Shown here piece by piece: positions 29,601-35,600 of a stretch of DNA of 64,000 bases. This DNA is from an uncultured Nitrospirota bacterium (GTDB taxonomy: Bacteria > CG2-30-53-67). A program made the position numbers. The first letter of the stretch is position 1. The number at the start of each line of letters is the position of its first letter. Location: contig CAYZZU010000008.1 in assembly GCA_964483105.1 (NCBI GenBank), positions 20,642-84,641 on the forward strand, in the 5' to 3' direction.

Positions 29601-32600
29601 TCCATCGAGGAACGAGTTCAAACCGACCTCCGGTATATCCCGGTGGATGTGAGTGAGAAGACCCTGATCGAGGCCTCCCGGGATCTGCTGCTCCATTACC
29701 CTGGTTTGCGGATCCTGGGTATGGTGGCCGATTTTACAAGACACCTGGAGGAAATCCCGGCGGAGCGGGAGAAAATCCTGCTTTTCCTGGGAGGAACCGT
29801 CGGCAATTTCAGAGAAGAGGAGCGGAAGAGATTCTTTCGTCAGGTCGCCCGCGTTCTGGGGCGAAAAGGCCGTTTCCTTCTGGGGTTGGATCTGATCAAA
29901 CCCCGAGAAACACTGGAGCGGGCCTATGACGACTCCCGGGGGGTCACCTCTGATTTTAACAAGAATGTGCTTGCTGTGGTCAATCGAAGATTGCAGGGAA
30001 ATTTCAGACCGGCGGATTTCCGCCATCTGGCGTTTTTTAACGAAGAAAAGAAACGGATCGAGATGCATCTTCGGGCCCGCCGGAGGATCGAAGTCGAGGT
30101 TAAGGCCCTGAACCTGCGGGTGAGCATGGCGCCCGGTGAAACCATTCACACGGAAATCTCCCGGAAGTTCGACCGGGAAGAAGTCTACAAAATGGCTTTT
30201 GAGGCGGGACTGACGGTCACCCGTTGGTTTTCAGATCCCCGGGAATGGTTCGCCATCGTGGAGATGCGCGCTGAAAATGAGGAAGTGTGTTTCTCGTGAA
30301 TGGAGAAGGATAGAAGGAGTGACATGTCATCCAGAAAGTTCGATCCGAAGAAACTGGCCAAGCTGAACGATCCGGAAAGGTTCAAGACGCTGAATCCGGA
30401 TATCCTCTGGAAAGCGGCAGGGGTGAGGGATCCTGAAGCCCTGATCGACATCGGGGCCGGGACCGGGTTTTTCGCCGTTCCCTTTTGCGAGAAGATGGGG
30501 GAAGGGAAGGTCTATGCCTGTGATCTGTCCGAGACCATGATCGAGTGGATGAAGGAGAACCTCCCCACCCGGTACCGGGACCGGATCGTCCCCCTCCGGA
30601 TGGAAGAGAGCGCAGTTCCCCTTCCGGATGAAACGGGAGACATGATTTACATGATCAACCTCCATCATGAGCTGGAAAAGCCCGTGGAGATGATGCGCGA
30701 GGGTTACCGGCTGTTGAAACCCGGAGGGATCCTCCTGATTGTGGACTGGAAGAAAAGGGAGACTTCCGATGGGCCGCCTCTCTCCATCCGCGTTCCGGCG
30801 GAAGAGATGATCGGTCACATGCGGGCGGGGGGATTTGTGGAGATTGTCAGGCACGACCTCCTGCCCGAACATGAGCTTCTGGTGGGGAAAAAGAAAGATC
30901 TTGGAGAGGGTTCCGGGAGCTGTGGACAAACCGTGAGTTTTCCTGAGGAACGTGCAACATGCTGATTCCCGTCCTTGAAGCCGCTTCCATTCTTCTCCTG
31001 GCTCTTTCCGCCGGACTGGCGTTCCGGCTGATCCGCATGACCGGCAGACACGCGGCATGGATCCTGATCGCCTCGGCTTTTTCTCTGGCGGCCGCACAAC
31101 GCGCCGTTACACTGGTTCGTTTTGCTGAAAGAGATTTCGCGCATCCTCCCGGCAGCCTGTCCGGGGAATGGATCGTCCTGGTCATCTCGGCGCTCATGGC
31201 GCTCGGAATCGCGAAGATTGCTCTGCTCTTCCGGAAGATCCGACGGTCGGAATCGGCGCTCGCCCTGTCGGAGAAGAGGTACCGGAATATCTTTCATAAA
31301 ACGGCGGTTTCTCTCTGGGAAGAGGATGTCTCGAAGGTCAAGTCCCTCCTGGAGGAACTGAAGTCGCGCGGTGTGAGCAATTTCCGGGACTACATGGAGA
31401 AACATCCGGATTTTGTCCGCAAGGCCGTCAAGATGACAAAGGTTCTGGACGTCAATGAACGAACCTTGGAGCTCTACAAGGCGAAAAGCAAGGAGGAACT
31501 GTTGGGTTCCCTCGACCGCGTCTTCATCCCGGAATCCTATCCGGTTTTTCGGGAAATCCTGATCGCCCTTGCCGAGGGGAAGACCTATTTCGAGGCCGAA
31601 GCGGTGAACCGAACCCTCCAGGGAGAACCGATGGATATCCTGATGACGGTGACCCTGTTCTCCGAGGGGGCAAAAACCGATCATATCCTGGTCAGTATTA
31701 TGGACATCACCGAGCGAAAGCGGATCGAGCGGAACCTGTATCTCTTCAAGAACCTCATGGATCAAACGAACGACGCGATTTACGTGGTGGATCCCGAAGA
31801 CGGTCGTTTTCTCGATGTCAATTATCAGGCTTGCGCCTCACTGGGGTACAGCCGGGAAGAGCTGCTGAAGATGGGAGTGCCCGACATCGATATGGTGTTG
31901 ACGAGCCGGGAGCTTTGGAGGGCGCGTGTAGAAAAACTGAAGAGGGGGAGGAGCAACCTGATCGAACGAACCCACCAGCGAAAGGATGGAAGTACCTTTC
32001 CTGTTGAAGTCAATGTGCGGTATGTCTGTGACGGGGAAGAGGCCTACCTGATCGCTGTCGTGCGTGATATCAGTGAACGCAGGAAGATAGAAACGGAGCT
32101 TCAACGCATGGAAAAACTTGAGTCCCTGGGCGTCCTGGCAGGGGGGATCGCCCACGACTTTAATAATCTGCTTACCGGAATCCTGGGCAATATCGGCATC
32201 GCGAAAAAGCCCGGGATATCCGGAAAACTTGTATACGAACGGCTGGAAAAAGCGGAGAAAGCCGCCCTGCGTGCCAAAGGACTGACCCGGCAGCTTTTAA
32301 CCTTTTCACGGGGTGGTACACCCGTAAAAAGTACCCTCTCTCTGAAAAAACTGATCCGAGATGCAGCCGGGTTCGCCTTAACGGGATCCAACGTGAAGTG
32401 CGAGTTCGACCTGGCGGAGGATCTTCGTTTTGTCGACGCCGATGAGGACCAGATCGTCCAGGTAATCCACAACCTGGTGCTCAATGCCGATCAGGCCATG
32501 CCCGAAGGGGGGGAAATCAGAATCCGGGCGGCAAACGTCGCGGTGAATTCCGGAAGCCATCTTCCTTTACAGAAGGGTGAATACGTGAAGGTTTGCGTCG

Positions 32601-35600
32601 AAGATCAGGGATTCGGAATTCCGAAAGAAAACCTGAACCGAATCTTTGATCCCTACTTTACCACCAAGAAAAGGGGGAGCGGACTTGGCCTGGCCTCCGC
32701 CTATTCCATTCTGAAACGGCACGGTGGCTGGATCGATGTGGAACCCCGGGCGGAAGGTGGAACGACCTTTGCCTTCTATCTTCCGGTCTCCGAAAAGGCC
32801 CTCCGGTTCAAGAAGGAAACCTCGGAAAGGCCGCTTTCCGGTCAGGGGAGGATCCTGGTGATGGATGACGAGGAGATCGTACGCGATGTGGCCGGAAAAA
32901 TACTCCGCCATATGGGGTATGAGGTCGACTTTGCCGGGGAAGGATCGGAGGCGCTTGATCTCTACCGGGATGCGAAAAAGGCCGGACGCCCTTTCCACCT
33001 GGTCATCATGGATCTGACAATTCCCGGAGGAATGGGGGGAAAGGAAACCATCCGGAAACTCCTCGAGATCGATCCCGAAGCAAAGGCCGTCGTATCCAGC
33101 GGTTACTCCAACGATCCGATCATGTCGGACTGCAAGGCATACGGATTCAAGGGGGTTCTCCGGAAACCCTATCGCCCCCGGGAGATGGGGGATGTTCTGT
33201 CGAGTCTCGGAACGTGAAGTCCGTTGAACTTTGGCGGAACTTTGGGGACGTTGTTACCGGGCGTGCCTTTAGTTTGACAAGGTTTGGCAAATTCAATAGA
33301 ATCACACTTTAATCGCCGCCATAAGCGTACCGGACATTTGTTCGAAAACCGGTATAAATCCATACTTTGCGACGAAGACAATTACCTTCTTACGTTGGTC
33401 CGCTACATACACCTGAATCCCCTTCGTGCGAACATCGTAAAGACTATAGAAGAACTTGATCGCTACCCCTTTTGCGGACACCGGACAATCGTCGGAAAGA
33501 CCGAACATCCATGGACGGACGTAGATTATGTTCTCTTACAGTTCGGGCGCACGAGGCGAAAGGGACTGGCGGAATATCGGAAGTTCATGAGGGAAGGGGC
33601 CGGGCTTGGAAAACAGCCGGAGTTGACCGGCGGAGGCCTCTTGCGAAGTCTTGGCGGCTGGTCCCAGGTAATTGCCAGACGTCGGACGGGAAAGGAAGAA
33701 GAAGGGGACGATCGGATACTGGGGAGCGGTGATTTTGTCCACGCGATATTGAAAGAAACAGAAGAAAGGGAGCTCCGGCAGCTCAAGCTGAAACATTCCG
33801 GGCAGACCATTCAGAAGATCATCGACGAAGAGTGCAAGAATACAGGGGTCTGTGTAATGGAAGTCAAGAACGGCACGCGCCGGAGAGCGGTGTGCCGATT
33901 GCGGGCTGTCATAGCCTTACGGAGTCGGATGGAACTGGGTTTGTCATCCGCTGAGATCGCCCGTCACCTGGGAGTGGCGACCTCCAGCATTTCGCGGGCG
34001 ATTCAGAGGATTGAAGATAAGCGATCGTCATAGCAATATGCACTCACAGTAACAACGTCCCCCAAATACGCCCGTTGATCTTTTTAACGCCGGATCACCA
34101 TAAAAAATTGGGGGAAGTCTCCAGTCTTGCGCTCTTGACTTTTTTACGATTGGAGTGTATAGGACATTCTATGTCGTGCCCAGGCTGTTGAGGTATCCAG
34201 TATCCCGGTACCCGGGTATCATGTCATGAATTGAGTTTTAGGTTCCAGAAAGGAAGGCGGGGGAAATCATGCTGGACGTAATCCGCAAACGAAGAAGTAT
34301 TCGTTCCTATCAGAAACGCTCTGTGGAGGAAGGGGCATTGCGGTCTCTTCTGATGGCCGCGATGTTCTCACCCACGGCCCGGAACAAAAGGCCCTGGGAG
34401 TTCGTTCTGGTCCGCAAGCCGGAGCTCTTGACGAAGTTGTCGGAGTCCACACCCTATGCGGGATTCGTGAAAGATGCTCCGGTAACAATCGTGATCTGTT
34501 ATGATACGAGCCGGGGGCGCAGGTTCAAGGAAGATTCTTCCCTCTGCGCCGGATCGATCTATCTGGAGGCGGTTCATCAGGGACTGGGCACTTGTTTCGT
34601 GCAGATCGCCGATTCCGAAGGCGCGCACGGGAACCCCGAAAAGTACGTAAAGAAGCTACTGGAAATCCCTGAGAAATACCGGGTTCAATGTCTCATGCCG
34701 GTCGGTTATCCGGAAGATTCTCTTCCGGGACATAGAGACGATGAATTCGAAGAGGCCCGAATTCATGAGGAATGTTGGTAGCCTTTTCTTGACCCGGATG
34801 ATTTCCCGAAAAAATGACTCCCTCCAGAAGGGATTTCCTTTACCCGCAACAGGGAGTCTCTCCCCCTCCCGTAATGGAAAACCGGCCGAACTGAAAATCT
34901 ATAGTCGAACGACTCAGAAGGTCATGAGCGCCTTGTTCCAGAAAGAGGCGGAGCCCATCCTTCTCCAAGGAGAAGTCCCCCTGTTCCGGGTCCTTGGCTA
35001 TGTCCATAGCCAGAGAGGGCCCTCAACCGCCCGGAGCGGTAAAGAGCCGGACCCCGTGCTCCGAGGCGCCCCGGTTTTGCAGAATCTCCTTGAATTTCTC
35101 GATGGCATTCTTTGTCAAGACAACCACAACGCTTCTCCTTTTCAAAGACTTTCAATGGTTTTTGCCAAACCATTCTATATTAGCGCAAACCGAGGTCTGA
35201 TTGCAAATCGGAAAATTCGGCGTCCGGCATGAGGGTTGGATTTCAGGGAAAGGACCGGTTTTATGACGGGTCTGATTTCAAGGATTGCATCAGTTGCAGG
35301 CATTCTGATTCTTTCCGGATCAGGCGCTCGATTTCCGGGGCGACCCGGCCGCTTCCCCTGAGGCGCTGTTCACGGGCGTCCTCAATCGCCCTGCGGGTGG
35401 TACTCACGGTCTGTTTCATGTGCTGATCCAGATTCGAGGTGAACTGTCGGAAGGTACGATCCAGGTTCTGCAGGGTGGCCCAACGCAGGTTTTCCACGTT
35501 GTGCATCAGGAGTTCCCCGATTTCCGCCAGGAGCCTCTTTTGTATCCGGCGCAACAGGATGGTACGGGGAAGGAGCCAGTCGAATAGACCCGACGGAATT

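What the first reader, a model, noticed from the sequence alone, without database searches (positions are those of the whole stretch)
30300..33217. Extra SAM methyltransferase and PAS hybrid histidine kinase translationally coupled to the MES-egtD pair
The class I methyltransferase (30324-30965) starts 25 nt after the egtD stop. Its stop overlaps the start of a 752-aa membrane PAS hybrid kinase (ATGCTGA at 30959-30965).

That coupling suggests one transcript: MES-egtD-MTase-HK. Known MES and EanAB clusters are two-gene units. An additional methyltransferase could mean a modified product, such as S- or N-methylated ergothioneine, or selenoneine-like chemistry. The kinase could mean redox- or thiol-responsive control of the pathway. 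Neither has been described, and both are inference.
Basis: inference. Interest (0 to 1): 0.5.

Follow-up and report, generated by a model that had tools for sequence, protein, structure and literature searches.

The report
Ergothioneine gene pair with chance neighbours
The four tightly packed genes are real. Only the first two (MES and EgtD) form the known anaerobic ergothioneine pathway; the extra methyltransferase and the sensor kinase are neighbours seen only in this organism, so the locus is ordinary.

Summary
**Observation: confirmed.** Four same-strand genes sit with gaps of 31, 24 and -7 nt: MES (25835/25838-29239), EgtD (29271-30299), a class I methyltransferase (30324-30965) and a PAS hybrid histidine kinase (30959-33217, ATGCTGA overlap).

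**Functional reading: not supported.**
- In 80 MES loci from different species, none carries this methyltransferase family. Only one has a kinase directly after egtD.
- Genes after the pair are heterogeneous: 125 Pfam families in 121 ORFs.
- In 87 loci of the methyltransferase family (uncharacterised, PDB 3DH0-like), none has EgtD or a true MES.
- Kinase-like genes next to the methyltransferase occur at background rate (2.6%).
- The only two full-length kinase orthologues (54% identity) sit next to a divergent ABC-F gene and BipA. In the window those anchors lie about 10.3 kb upstream, so the kinase was probably a neighbour of BipA/ABC-F before MES-EgtD-methyltransferase came to lie beside it.
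- The overlap exists because this methyltransferase copy has a unique ~22-residue C-terminal tail.

**Best reading.** A canonical two-gene MES-EgtD module was packed, in this lineage only, against an unrelated housekeeping methyltransferase and a resident kinase. They are probably co-transcribed. Low interest.

The parts
25728..25757 (+). Candidate sigma70-like promoter upstream of MES (TTTGCA/TTGCAA, 17-18 nt spacer, TATGAT)
   Evidence: 9 of 12 consensus match. It lies in the 182-nt RF3-MES intergenic region. It is weak and consensus-only. No Rfam riboswitch was found there.
25835..29239 (+). MES, metallopterin-dependent ergothioneine synthase: a bis-MGD/Fe4S4 module fused to a NifS-like cysteine desulfurase. 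The likely start is ATG 25838 (JGI call, 1133 aa).
   Evidence: Searches give the domains. One search shows 66-71% identity to thousands of full-length fusions. One search shows that C13, C16, C20, C47, C152 and K950 align with CaMES C14, C17, C21, C48, C153 and K952, the residues named in PMC9516567.
29271..30299 (+). EgtD, L-histidine N-alpha-methyltransferase (makes trimethylhistidine/hercynine)
   Evidence: TIGR03438 equivalog, 365 bits against a cutoff of 290.9. PF10017, E = 1e-109. It is 31 nt downstream of MES.
30324..30965 (+). Class I SAM methyltransferase of the uncharacterised 3DH0-like family (213 aa). It carries a lineage-specific ~22-aa C-terminal tail that runs into the kinase start.
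   Evidence: Searches give generic Methyltransf_11/25 matches only. PDB 3dh0_A, E = 3e-32; 877 homologues; apart from the copy on this organism's own contigs, the best 120 listed are all 50-61% identical; family motifs are conserved, and the tail is not shared with the 29 aligned homologues, nearly all of which end about 15-25 residues earlier.
30959..33217 (+). Membrane PAS hybrid histidine kinase (752 aa): 3 predicted TM helices, a PAS-like region (~100-250), PAS (262-375), HisKA, HATPase_c and a C-terminal receiver
   Evidence: One search gives the domains. One search gives the hydropathy peaks and the orthologue alignment from residue 1. Searches place the orthologues P0244 and P0246 next to ABC-F/BipA, not next to MES.
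16844..18655 (+). BipA/TypA GTPase, a synteny anchor shared with the kinase orthologue locus L173
   Evidence: 78% identity over 601 aa to L173 4290-6098.
18661..20607 (-). ABC-F ATPase, a synteny anchor. In relatives it is the direct divergent neighbour of the kinase.
   Evidence: 61-62% identity to L172/L173 6095-7933(-). That gene lies 67 nt from the kinase start in those loci, against about 10.35 kb here.
33284..34033 (+). Truncated Y1/REP-associated tyrosine-transposase-like ORF with a C-terminal HTH. It follows the kinase and is preceded by a strong sigma70-like promoter (33274-33302). It marks the likely end of the transcription unit.
   Evidence: NF047646, 29 bits against a cutoff of 80, matching only the C-terminal part of the model; weak HTH hits; promoter match of 11 of 12.

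Best explanation
The locus holds a canonical, self-sufficient two-gene anaerobic ergothioneine module. EgtD trimethylates histidine, and MES inserts sulfur using its own cysteine-desulfurase domain.

In this one uncultured lineage (probably Nitrospirota-like), that module lies packed head-to-tail against two functionally unrelated genes:
- a stand-alone housekeeping class I SAM methyltransferase of the uncharacterised 3DH0-like family;
- a resident PAS hybrid histidine kinase.

The ancestral neighbours of the kinase are ABC-F and BipA. A local rearrangement placed about 10 kb, including MES-EgtD-methyltransferase, between ABC-F and the kinase. The junction left the methyltransferase with a novel C-terminal tail whose stop overlaps the kinase start.

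The four genes are probably co-transcribed from the promoter upstream of MES, and the kinase is probably translationally coupled to the methyltransferase. That co-expression is incidental operon accretion. It is not an extended ergothioneine pathway or a dedicated regulator.

**Shown:** gene identities, spacing, lack of conservation in both directions, and the alternative context of the orthologous kinase.
**Inferred:** co-transcription, the direction of the rearrangement, and functional independence.
For: **1. The MES/EgtD module is complete and conserved on its own.**
- The catalytic residues are present.
- EgtD scores above the equivalog cutoff.
- MES and EgtD are adjacent in 55 of the 70 loci in which my ORF caller found a complete MES (80 loci fetched in all).
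- CaMES plus an EgtD alone make ergothioneine in E. coli (PMC9516567).

**2. No MES locus has this methyltransferase.**
- 0 of 80 GTDB species loci carry it, and 0 of 4 of the closest metagenomic loci.
- The only nearby class I methyltransferases (L089, L175) are on the opposite strand. They score 31-38 bits against the family HMM (true family members give roughly 185-255 bits in tblastn with the window protein) and lack the family motifs.

**3. Genes downstream of the pair are heterogeneous.**
- 125 Pfam families occur in 121 ORFs, and no family occurs more than 4 times.

**4. The methyltransferase family has no link to ergothioneine genes or to kinases.**
- 0 of 87 loci have EgtD or a true MES.
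- Its neighbours span 104 Pfam families in 117 ORFs.
- Three long contigs with 55-58% identical homologues show three unrelated contexts.
- Kinase-like ORFs at offsets of ±1 or ±2 genes number 5 of 194, or 2.6%. This equals the 2.6% background.

**5. The kinase belongs elsewhere.**
- The only full-length orthologues (54% identity, 99-100% coverage) lie beside divergent ABC-F and BipA, with no MES, EgtD or methyltransferase.
- The window keeps BipA (78%) and ABC-F (62%) about 10.35 kb upstream.

**6. The overlap is a junction feature.**
- The methyltransferase tail that creates it is not shared with the 29 aligned homologues.

**7. Nothing marks the block as foreign or separately regulated.**
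- GC3 is uniform at 0.64-0.72 across all these genes.
- No riboswitch or significant terminator lies inside the array.
Against: - The spacing (24 nt and a 7-nt overlap) is what true operons look like. Co-expression could have been co-opted for a lineage-specific function.
- No genome closer than about 70% MES identity or 78% BipA identity was available. Conservation within the immediate genus or family is therefore untested.
- The arrangement is stable in four contigs from four datasets, but these probably represent one population.
- The methyltransferase family has no known substrate, so activity on ergothioneine or hercynine cannot be excluded by sequence.
- Only the best 80 of 588 MES loci and the best 80 of 393 methyltransferase loci were inspected.
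Confidence: 0.8

Rival explanations
1. Extended ergothioneine pathway. The extra methyltransferase modifies ergothioneine or a precursor, for example to S-methyl-ergothioneine. The kinase senses redox or thiol status and controls the operon.
For: - The four genes are tightly packed on one strand, with ribosome-binding sites before the last three starts and an overlap.
- The methyltransferase keeps all SAM-binding and family-invariant motifs, so it is probably active.
- S-methyl-ergothioneine exists as a metabolite in animals (papers listed). None of the listed papers concerns a bacterial enzyme for it; only their titles and abstracts were read.
Against: - The association is not conserved in either direction: 0 of 80 MES loci and 0 of 87 methyltransferase loci.
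- Kinase orthologues live elsewhere without MES.
- EgtD alone performs all three N-methylations, and MES plus EgtD suffice for ergothioneine synthesis.
- No Pfam or NCBIfam family above its cutoff identifies the substrate, thiol or otherwise.
- The overlap arises from a unique tail, which suggests a recent junction.
Confidence: 0.07
2. A methyltransferase-kinase functional pair, independent of ergothioneine. The two translationally coupled genes form a unit: either the methyltransferase product is the signal, or the methyltransferase is an output of the two-component system. That unit happens to lie after egtD.
For: - The 7-nt overlap is the tightest junction in the array.
- A Nitrospirota homologue is followed on the same strand by a response regulator and a PAS kinase.
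- A few metagenomic loci (L108, L114, L121, L167) have kinases within about 1.2 kb.
Against: - Kinase-like ORFs among the four nearest neighbours are exactly at background: 5 of 194 (2.6%) against 2.6% of all ORFs. HisKA is found in only 4 of 117 immediate neighbours.
- The true kinase orthologues have no methyltransferase beside them.
- The kinases near other family members have different sensor architectures.
Confidence: 0.08
3. Separate transcription units despite the spacing. The methyltransferase and/or the kinase have their own promoters inside the upstream coding sequences, so there is no co-expression with MES/EgtD at all.
For: - Promoters of non-sigma70 type, or promoters specific to this lineage, are not covered by the scan.
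- In relatives the kinase has its own 67-nt upstream region.
Against: - No sigma70-like + strand site lies between 28306 and 33274.
- The gaps are too short to hold promoters outside coding sequence.
- The kinase start overlaps the methyltransferase stop.
Confidence: 0.05

Closest known systems
MES-EgtD two-gene anaerobic ergothioneine cluster (Caldithrix abyssi; Beliaeva et al., JACS Au 2022, PMC9516567)
   Same: - The fusion architecture is the same: an Fe4S4/bis-MGD module plus a NifS-like desulfurase.
- All residues named in the paper are conserved.
- It is 68% identical to the C. abyssi MAG copy L022.
- An EgtD gene is adjacent on the same strand.
   Different: Only the downstream neighbours differ. 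The pair is followed without a break by an unrelated methyltransferase and a hybrid kinase. This was not seen in any of 84 other MES loci examined.
PDB 3DH0, SAM-dependent methyltransferase from a structural-genomics deposit (function unknown)
   Same: - It is the best solved relative: E = 3e-32 over residues 3-157.
- It shares the N-terminal KFDP..L..L.DP.R motif, the GxGxG SAM motif, the HEL motif and the DWKK..GPP motif.
- It is of similar size, about 190-220 aa.
   Different: - The window protein has an extra ~22-residue C-terminal tail.
- No substrate is known for either protein.
CckA-like / PRK13557-type PAS hybrid histidine kinases
   Same: - It has a HisKA-HATPase_c-receiver core. The core is 45-59% identical to thousands of proteins.
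- NCBIfam best hits are PRK13557 and CckA, both far below their cutoffs.
   Different: - The sensor is specific: three TM helices plus a PAS-like region (residues 100-260). That sensor is shared only with P0244 and P0246.
- It is not a member of any named equivalog.
- The signal it senses is unknown.
EanA/EanB anaerobic ergothioneine pathway (Chlorobium limicola), from my own knowledge
   Same: It is also a two-gene unit: a histidine methyltransferase plus an oxygen-independent sulfur transferase.
   Different: The sulfur-inserting enzyme is unrelated (a rhodanese-like EanB rather than the molybdopterin/NifS fusion). No EanB-like gene was looked for or noticed in the locus.

Membership tests
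MES (metallopterin-dependent ergothioneine synthase) | N-terminal molybdopterin (bis-MGD) oxidoreductase module fused to a C-terminal class V aminotransferase / cysteine desulfurase | tested here: met
   PF00384 (62-492), PF01568 (604-710) and PF00266 (752-1112). NifS TIGR03402, 486 bits.
MES (metallopterin-dependent ergothioneine synthase) | Four N-terminal Cys for the Fe4S4 cluster, the metal-ligand Cys (CaMES C153) and the PLP lysine (CaMES K952) | tested here: met
   window C13, C16, C20, C47, C152 and K950 align with C14, C17, C21, C48, C153 and K952 of the C. abyssi MAG copy. These residues are named in PMC9516567.
MES (metallopterin-dependent ergothioneine synthase) | Co-encoded with a histidine-specific methyltransferase (EgtD) | tested here: met
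   EgtD lies 31 nt downstream on the same strand.
MES (metallopterin-dependent ergothioneine synthase) | Converts trimethylhistidine to ergothioneine | not testable with these tools
   This needs heterologous expression or an enzyme assay.
EgtD (L-histidine N-alpha-methyltransferase) | Scores above the curated equivalog threshold of TIGR03438 / PF10017 | tested here: met
   365.1 bits against a cutoff of 290.9. PF10017, 366.8 bits.
3DH0-like class I SAM methyltransferase family (uncharacterised) | Family-invariant motifs: KFDP..L..LN.P.R, DIGAGTGFF, YACD, NLHHEL and DWKK...GPP..IR | tested here: met
   all 41 invariant columns of the 30-sequence alignment are present in the window protein, which is itself one of the 30 rows; 3dh0_A, E = 3e-32.
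Extended ergothioneine gene cluster (MES-EgtD plus methyltransferase plus kinase as one functional system) | The accessory genes recur beside MES/EgtD in independent lineages | tested here: not met
   0 of 80 MES loci have the methyltransferase family, and 1 of 63 has any kinase directly downstream. 0 of 87 methyltransferase loci have EgtD or MES.
Extended ergothioneine gene cluster (MES-EgtD plus methyltransferase plus kinase as one functional system) | Orthologues of the kinase are associated with ergothioneine genes | tested here: not met
   P0244 and P0246 lie next to ABC-F/BipA, with no MES, EgtD or methyltransferase in the parts of those contigs held (about 8 kb upstream and 0.3-2.4 kb downstream of the kinase). 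The L048 kinase near MES shares only the kinase core and receiver.
Thiol S-methyltransferases (TPMT-type) and arsenite methyltransferase ArsM | Scores above the family threshold | tested here: not met
   No TPMT-type family is among the 10 Pfam families listed at E ≤ 1e-3. The ArsM models score 26-47 bits against cutoffs of 240-575.
Hybrid histidine kinase (two-component system) | HisKA phospho-acceptor, HATPase_c and a C-terminal receiver domain | tested here: met
   HisKA 393-453 (27.3 bits against a cutoff of 26.9), HATPase_c 495-611 and Response_reg 632-744.

The most novel reading that the evidence does not exclude
In this lineage the 3DH0-like methyltransferase has been recruited to methylate ergothioneine, or a MES/EgtD intermediate or by-product. 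That would give an S- or N-methylated derivative. It would also give the first substrate for a large uncharacterised methyltransferase family, and the co-translated PAS hybrid kinase would tie its own expression to the pathway.
Probability: 0.06. Interest if true: 0.55.

Novelty: new member of a known kind. Interest (0 to 1): 0.15.

Why it matters
Taken at face value, the finding would have meant a new ergothioneine derivative and the first dedicated regulator of the anaerobic MES pathway. The comparative evidence shows instead that MES-EgtD is a compact, self-contained and widely distributed two-gene module. What follows it in a given genome is essentially arbitrary.

The practical value is negative: this methyltransferase and kinase are poor candidates for ergothioneine-pathway experiments.

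A better lead from the same survey is the betaine-type ABC transporter that recurs beside MES/EgtD in about 10 of 80 species. MES variants that lack the desulfurase domain are also worth a look.

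Tried and rejected
- **L048 kinase as a second co-localisation.** This Desulfomonilaceae kinase (751 aa) lies 0.9 kb upstream of MES and looked promising. Pairwise alignment shows 52% identity only over the kinase core and receiver, with no similarity in the sensor. That core is shared by thousands of proteins. Rejected.
- **L140, RF3 (67% identity) about 4 kb from a methyltransferase homologue.** I tested whether RF3-methyltransferase is the ancestral arrangement. 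No further synteny was found. Rejected as coincidence.
- **Class I methyltransferases near MES in L089 and L175.** They are on the opposite strand, score only 31-38 bits against the family HMM and lack the family motifs. They are not the same family.
- **Compositional evidence for horizontal acquisition of the block.** GC3 is uniform. The higher GC of MES comes from codon positions 1 and 2. No signal.
- **Riboswitch or cis-regulatory RNA upstream of MES, or within the array.** Nothing relevant was found.
- **Terminator-like hairpin at the MES stop (29225-29245).** It is no more stable than shuffled sequence (z = 0.19), and the terminator-scan counts are at chance (13 found against 12.7 expected).
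- **Taxon name from cluster look-up.** The sources give no names. A Nitrospirota affiliation is only suggested by the best hits.

Full report
**Observation**

The region holds four same-strand ORFs:
- a 1134-aa ORF at 25835-29239 (JGI calls the ATG at 25838);
- a 342-aa ORF at 29271-30299;
- a 213-aa ORF at 30324-30965;
- a 752-aa ORF at 30959-33217.

- The egtD stop TGA ends at 30299. An AGGAG lies 5 nt before the ATG at 30324.
- The kinase ATG (30959-30961) and the methyltransferase TGA (30963-30965) form ATGCTGA. A GAGGA lies 9 nt upstream of the kinase ATG.
- The alternative ATG at 30300 is not supported. Thirty family members align from M-x-S-(K/R)-KFDP, which matches the 30324 start.
- The kinase start is confirmed by two orthologues that align from residue 1.

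The window is part of JGI contig Ga0256915_100014 (160,778 bp). The same array is present on three further contigs from other datasets, probably the same population.

**Identities**

- *MES.* The first protein has PF00384 + PF01568 + PF00266. It is 66-71% identical over its full length to thousands of such fusions. It keeps the Fe4S4 cysteines, the metal-ligand cysteine and the PLP lysine that define MES in Caldithrix abyssi (residues named in PMC9516567).
- *EgtD.* The second protein passes the EgtD equivalog threshold (TIGR03438, 365 bits against 290.9).
- *Methyltransferase.* The third protein is a generic class I SAM methyltransferase. It matches Methyltransf_11/25 only, and no NCBIfam model scores above its cutoff. 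The best weak hits are ArsM and UbiE types at 40-47 bits against cutoffs of 158-510. Its closest solved relative is 3DH0, a structural-genomics methyltransferase of unknown function (E = 3e-32). It belongs to a large, well-conserved family of ~190-aa proteins: 877 hits were found, and apart from the copy on this organism's own contigs the best 120 listed are all 50-61% identical.
- *Kinase.* The fourth protein is a membrane PAS hybrid histidine kinase.

**Test 1: what lies beside MES elsewhere?**

A scan of one genome per species with an alignment of the MES N-terminal module found 588 confirmed loci, and the best 80 were fetched. They span Nitrospirota, Brocadiales, Thermodesulfobacteriota, Calditrichota, Zixibacteria, Methanophagales, Methanoculleus and Thiorhodococcus.

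- My ORF caller found a complete MES in 70 of the 80 loci. EgtD is adjacent in 55 of those 70: MES followed by EgtD in 47, and EgtD followed by MES in 8.
- The window's methyltransferase family is absent from all 80.
- The only class I methyltransferases near MES (L089, and L175 from a metagenome) are on the opposite strand. They score 31-38 bits against the family HMM and lack its motifs.
- A kinase directly follows egtD on the same strand in only one locus (L036).
- The two ORFs after the pair fall into 125 Pfam families across 121 ORFs. No family is seen more than four times.
- Tight same-strand packing is itself common. About 15 of 63 loci have a + strand ORF within 55 nt or less after the pair, each from a different family.

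**Test 2: what lies beside the methyltransferase family elsewhere?**

- Three long contigs with 55-58% identical homologues show three unrelated contexts: glyoxalase/cupin, MBL-fold hydrolase, and alpha/beta hydrolase.
- A metagenome scan with the family alignment gave 393 loci, of which the best 80 were fetched.
- None of 87 loci (0.48 Mb) contains EgtD or a true MES.
- Immediate neighbours span 104 Pfam families in 117 ORFs. The top family is HisKA with 4.
- Kinase-like ORFs make up 2.6% of all ORFs in these loci. At the four positions nearest the methyltransferase they number 5 of 194, also 2.6%. There is no methyltransferase-kinase association either.

**Test 3: where do the kinase orthologues live?**

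- Among 5898 homologues, only P0244 and P0246 match over the whole length, sensor included (54% identity, 99-100% coverage).
- Both lie immediately next to a divergent ABC-F gene, with BipA beyond it. The parts of those contigs that are held (about 8 kb upstream and 0.3-2.4 kb downstream of the kinase) contain no MES, EgtD or methyltransferase.
- The window contains the same BipA (16844-18655, 78% identity) and ABC-F (18661-20607, minus strand, 62% identity).
- Here about 10.35 kb separates ABC-F from the kinase. That stretch holds a cold-shock gene, MazG-like, HMGL-like, YajQ, an exonuclease, RF3, MES, EgtD and the methyltransferase.
- So the kinase's conserved neighbours are BipA and ABC-F, and the most likely history is that the other genes came to lie next to it; a loss of that block in the relatives cannot be excluded.
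- The L048 kinase near another MES shares only the kinase core and receiver.

**The junction**

The 29 homologues aligned with the window protein nearly all end about 15-25 residues earlier, near '...VGEK', and none shares its tail. The window copy continues for about 22 residues (DLGEGSGSCGQTVSFPEERATC) into the kinase start. The overlap therefore looks like a product of the juxtaposition, not a conserved coupling device.

**Other regulatory features**

- GC3 is uniform across the block.
- No riboswitch or known RNA element precedes MES.
- The hairpin at the MES stop is not significant.
- No + strand sigma70-like site lies inside the array after 28306.
- A strong sigma70-like promoter follows the kinase at 33274-33302.

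**Conclusion**

Co-transcription of the four genes is likely. MES-EgtD is a complete, known two-gene module, and the methyltransferase and kinase are neighbours specific to this lineage. A recruited, lineage-specific role for the methyltransferase cannot be excluded by sequence, and I put it at about 6%. The locus is another member of the known MES-EgtD kind, and interest is low.

Noticed in passing
L062, L063, L066, L069, L077, L081, L082, L088 (MES loci from genome contigs): These loci have short MES proteins (720-757 aa) that lack the C-terminal cysteine-desulfurase module, and in seven of the eight loci EgtD follows directly (none was found in L088). They include Methanophagales and Methanomicrobiales archaea, Candidatus Sulfobium and a Leptospirales MAG. 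The published MES needs its own desulfurase, so these variants may get sulfur another way. In L077 and L082, and in the full-length-MES locus L084, an FMN_red or flavodoxin ORF follows.
   Followed up: partly
L013, L024, L028, L041, L043, L049, L055, L064 (also L029, L038 more weakly); L174, L176, L177: A betaine-type ABC transporter lies next to MES/EgtD in about 10 of 80 species and in 3 metagenomic loci. It consists of an ATPase plus a fused OpuAC substrate-binding/permease protein, and the copies are 60-71% identical to each other. It is the only recurrent accessory seen. From memory, its architecture resembles the EgtUV ergothioneine transporter. No specific NCBIfam model matches. It is absent from the window.
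   Followed up: partly
L013, L021, L024, L028, L038, L042, L045, L064: Gene order is reversed (EgtD then MES) in Scalindua, Calditrichota and Zixibacteria loci, and the EgtD there is much more divergent (35-41% identity against 48-55% elsewhere). MES stays at about 65-68% identity.
   Followed up: no
L038 9974-15031 (Zixibacteria chromosome CP070742.1): The MES ORF runs to 1685 aa, about 550 residues beyond the usual C-terminus. This could be an additional fused domain or a missed stop.
   Followed up: no
window 20585-20906 (-) and 21116-21281 (-): There are two Rfam matches below gathering score. One is a cspA-thermoregulator-like match (54 bits, gathering score 78, E = 1.6e-11) at the cold-shock gene. 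The other is a 6S RNA-like match (35.8 bits, gathering score 46.4, E = 3e-4).
   Followed up: no
window 33284-34033 (+); L155 3641-4351; L005 5516-6172; L003 3519-4214: A truncated Y1/REP-associated tyrosine-transposase-like ORF with a DnaA_C/MarR-like HTH follows the kinase. A 42% identical homologue lies directly downstream of a methyltransferase family member in L155, and a 28% identical one lies upstream in L005. The gene call in this spot differs in contig L003, from another sample.
   Followed up: partly
window 30900-30965: The methyltransferase has a ~22-residue C-terminal tail (DLGEGSGSCGQTVSFPEERATC) that is not shared with the 29 aligned homologues, nearly all of which end earlier. 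The tail creates the overlap with the kinase start.
   Followed up: yes
window 34269-34781 (+); L073 14945-15601; L018 542-1027; L030 19813-20448: A nitroreductase-family gene lies about 1 kb after the kinase. Nitroreductase genes also occur near MES/EgtD in three other loci, at 25-31% identity or as a Pfam match only. This is probably chance.
   Followed up: no
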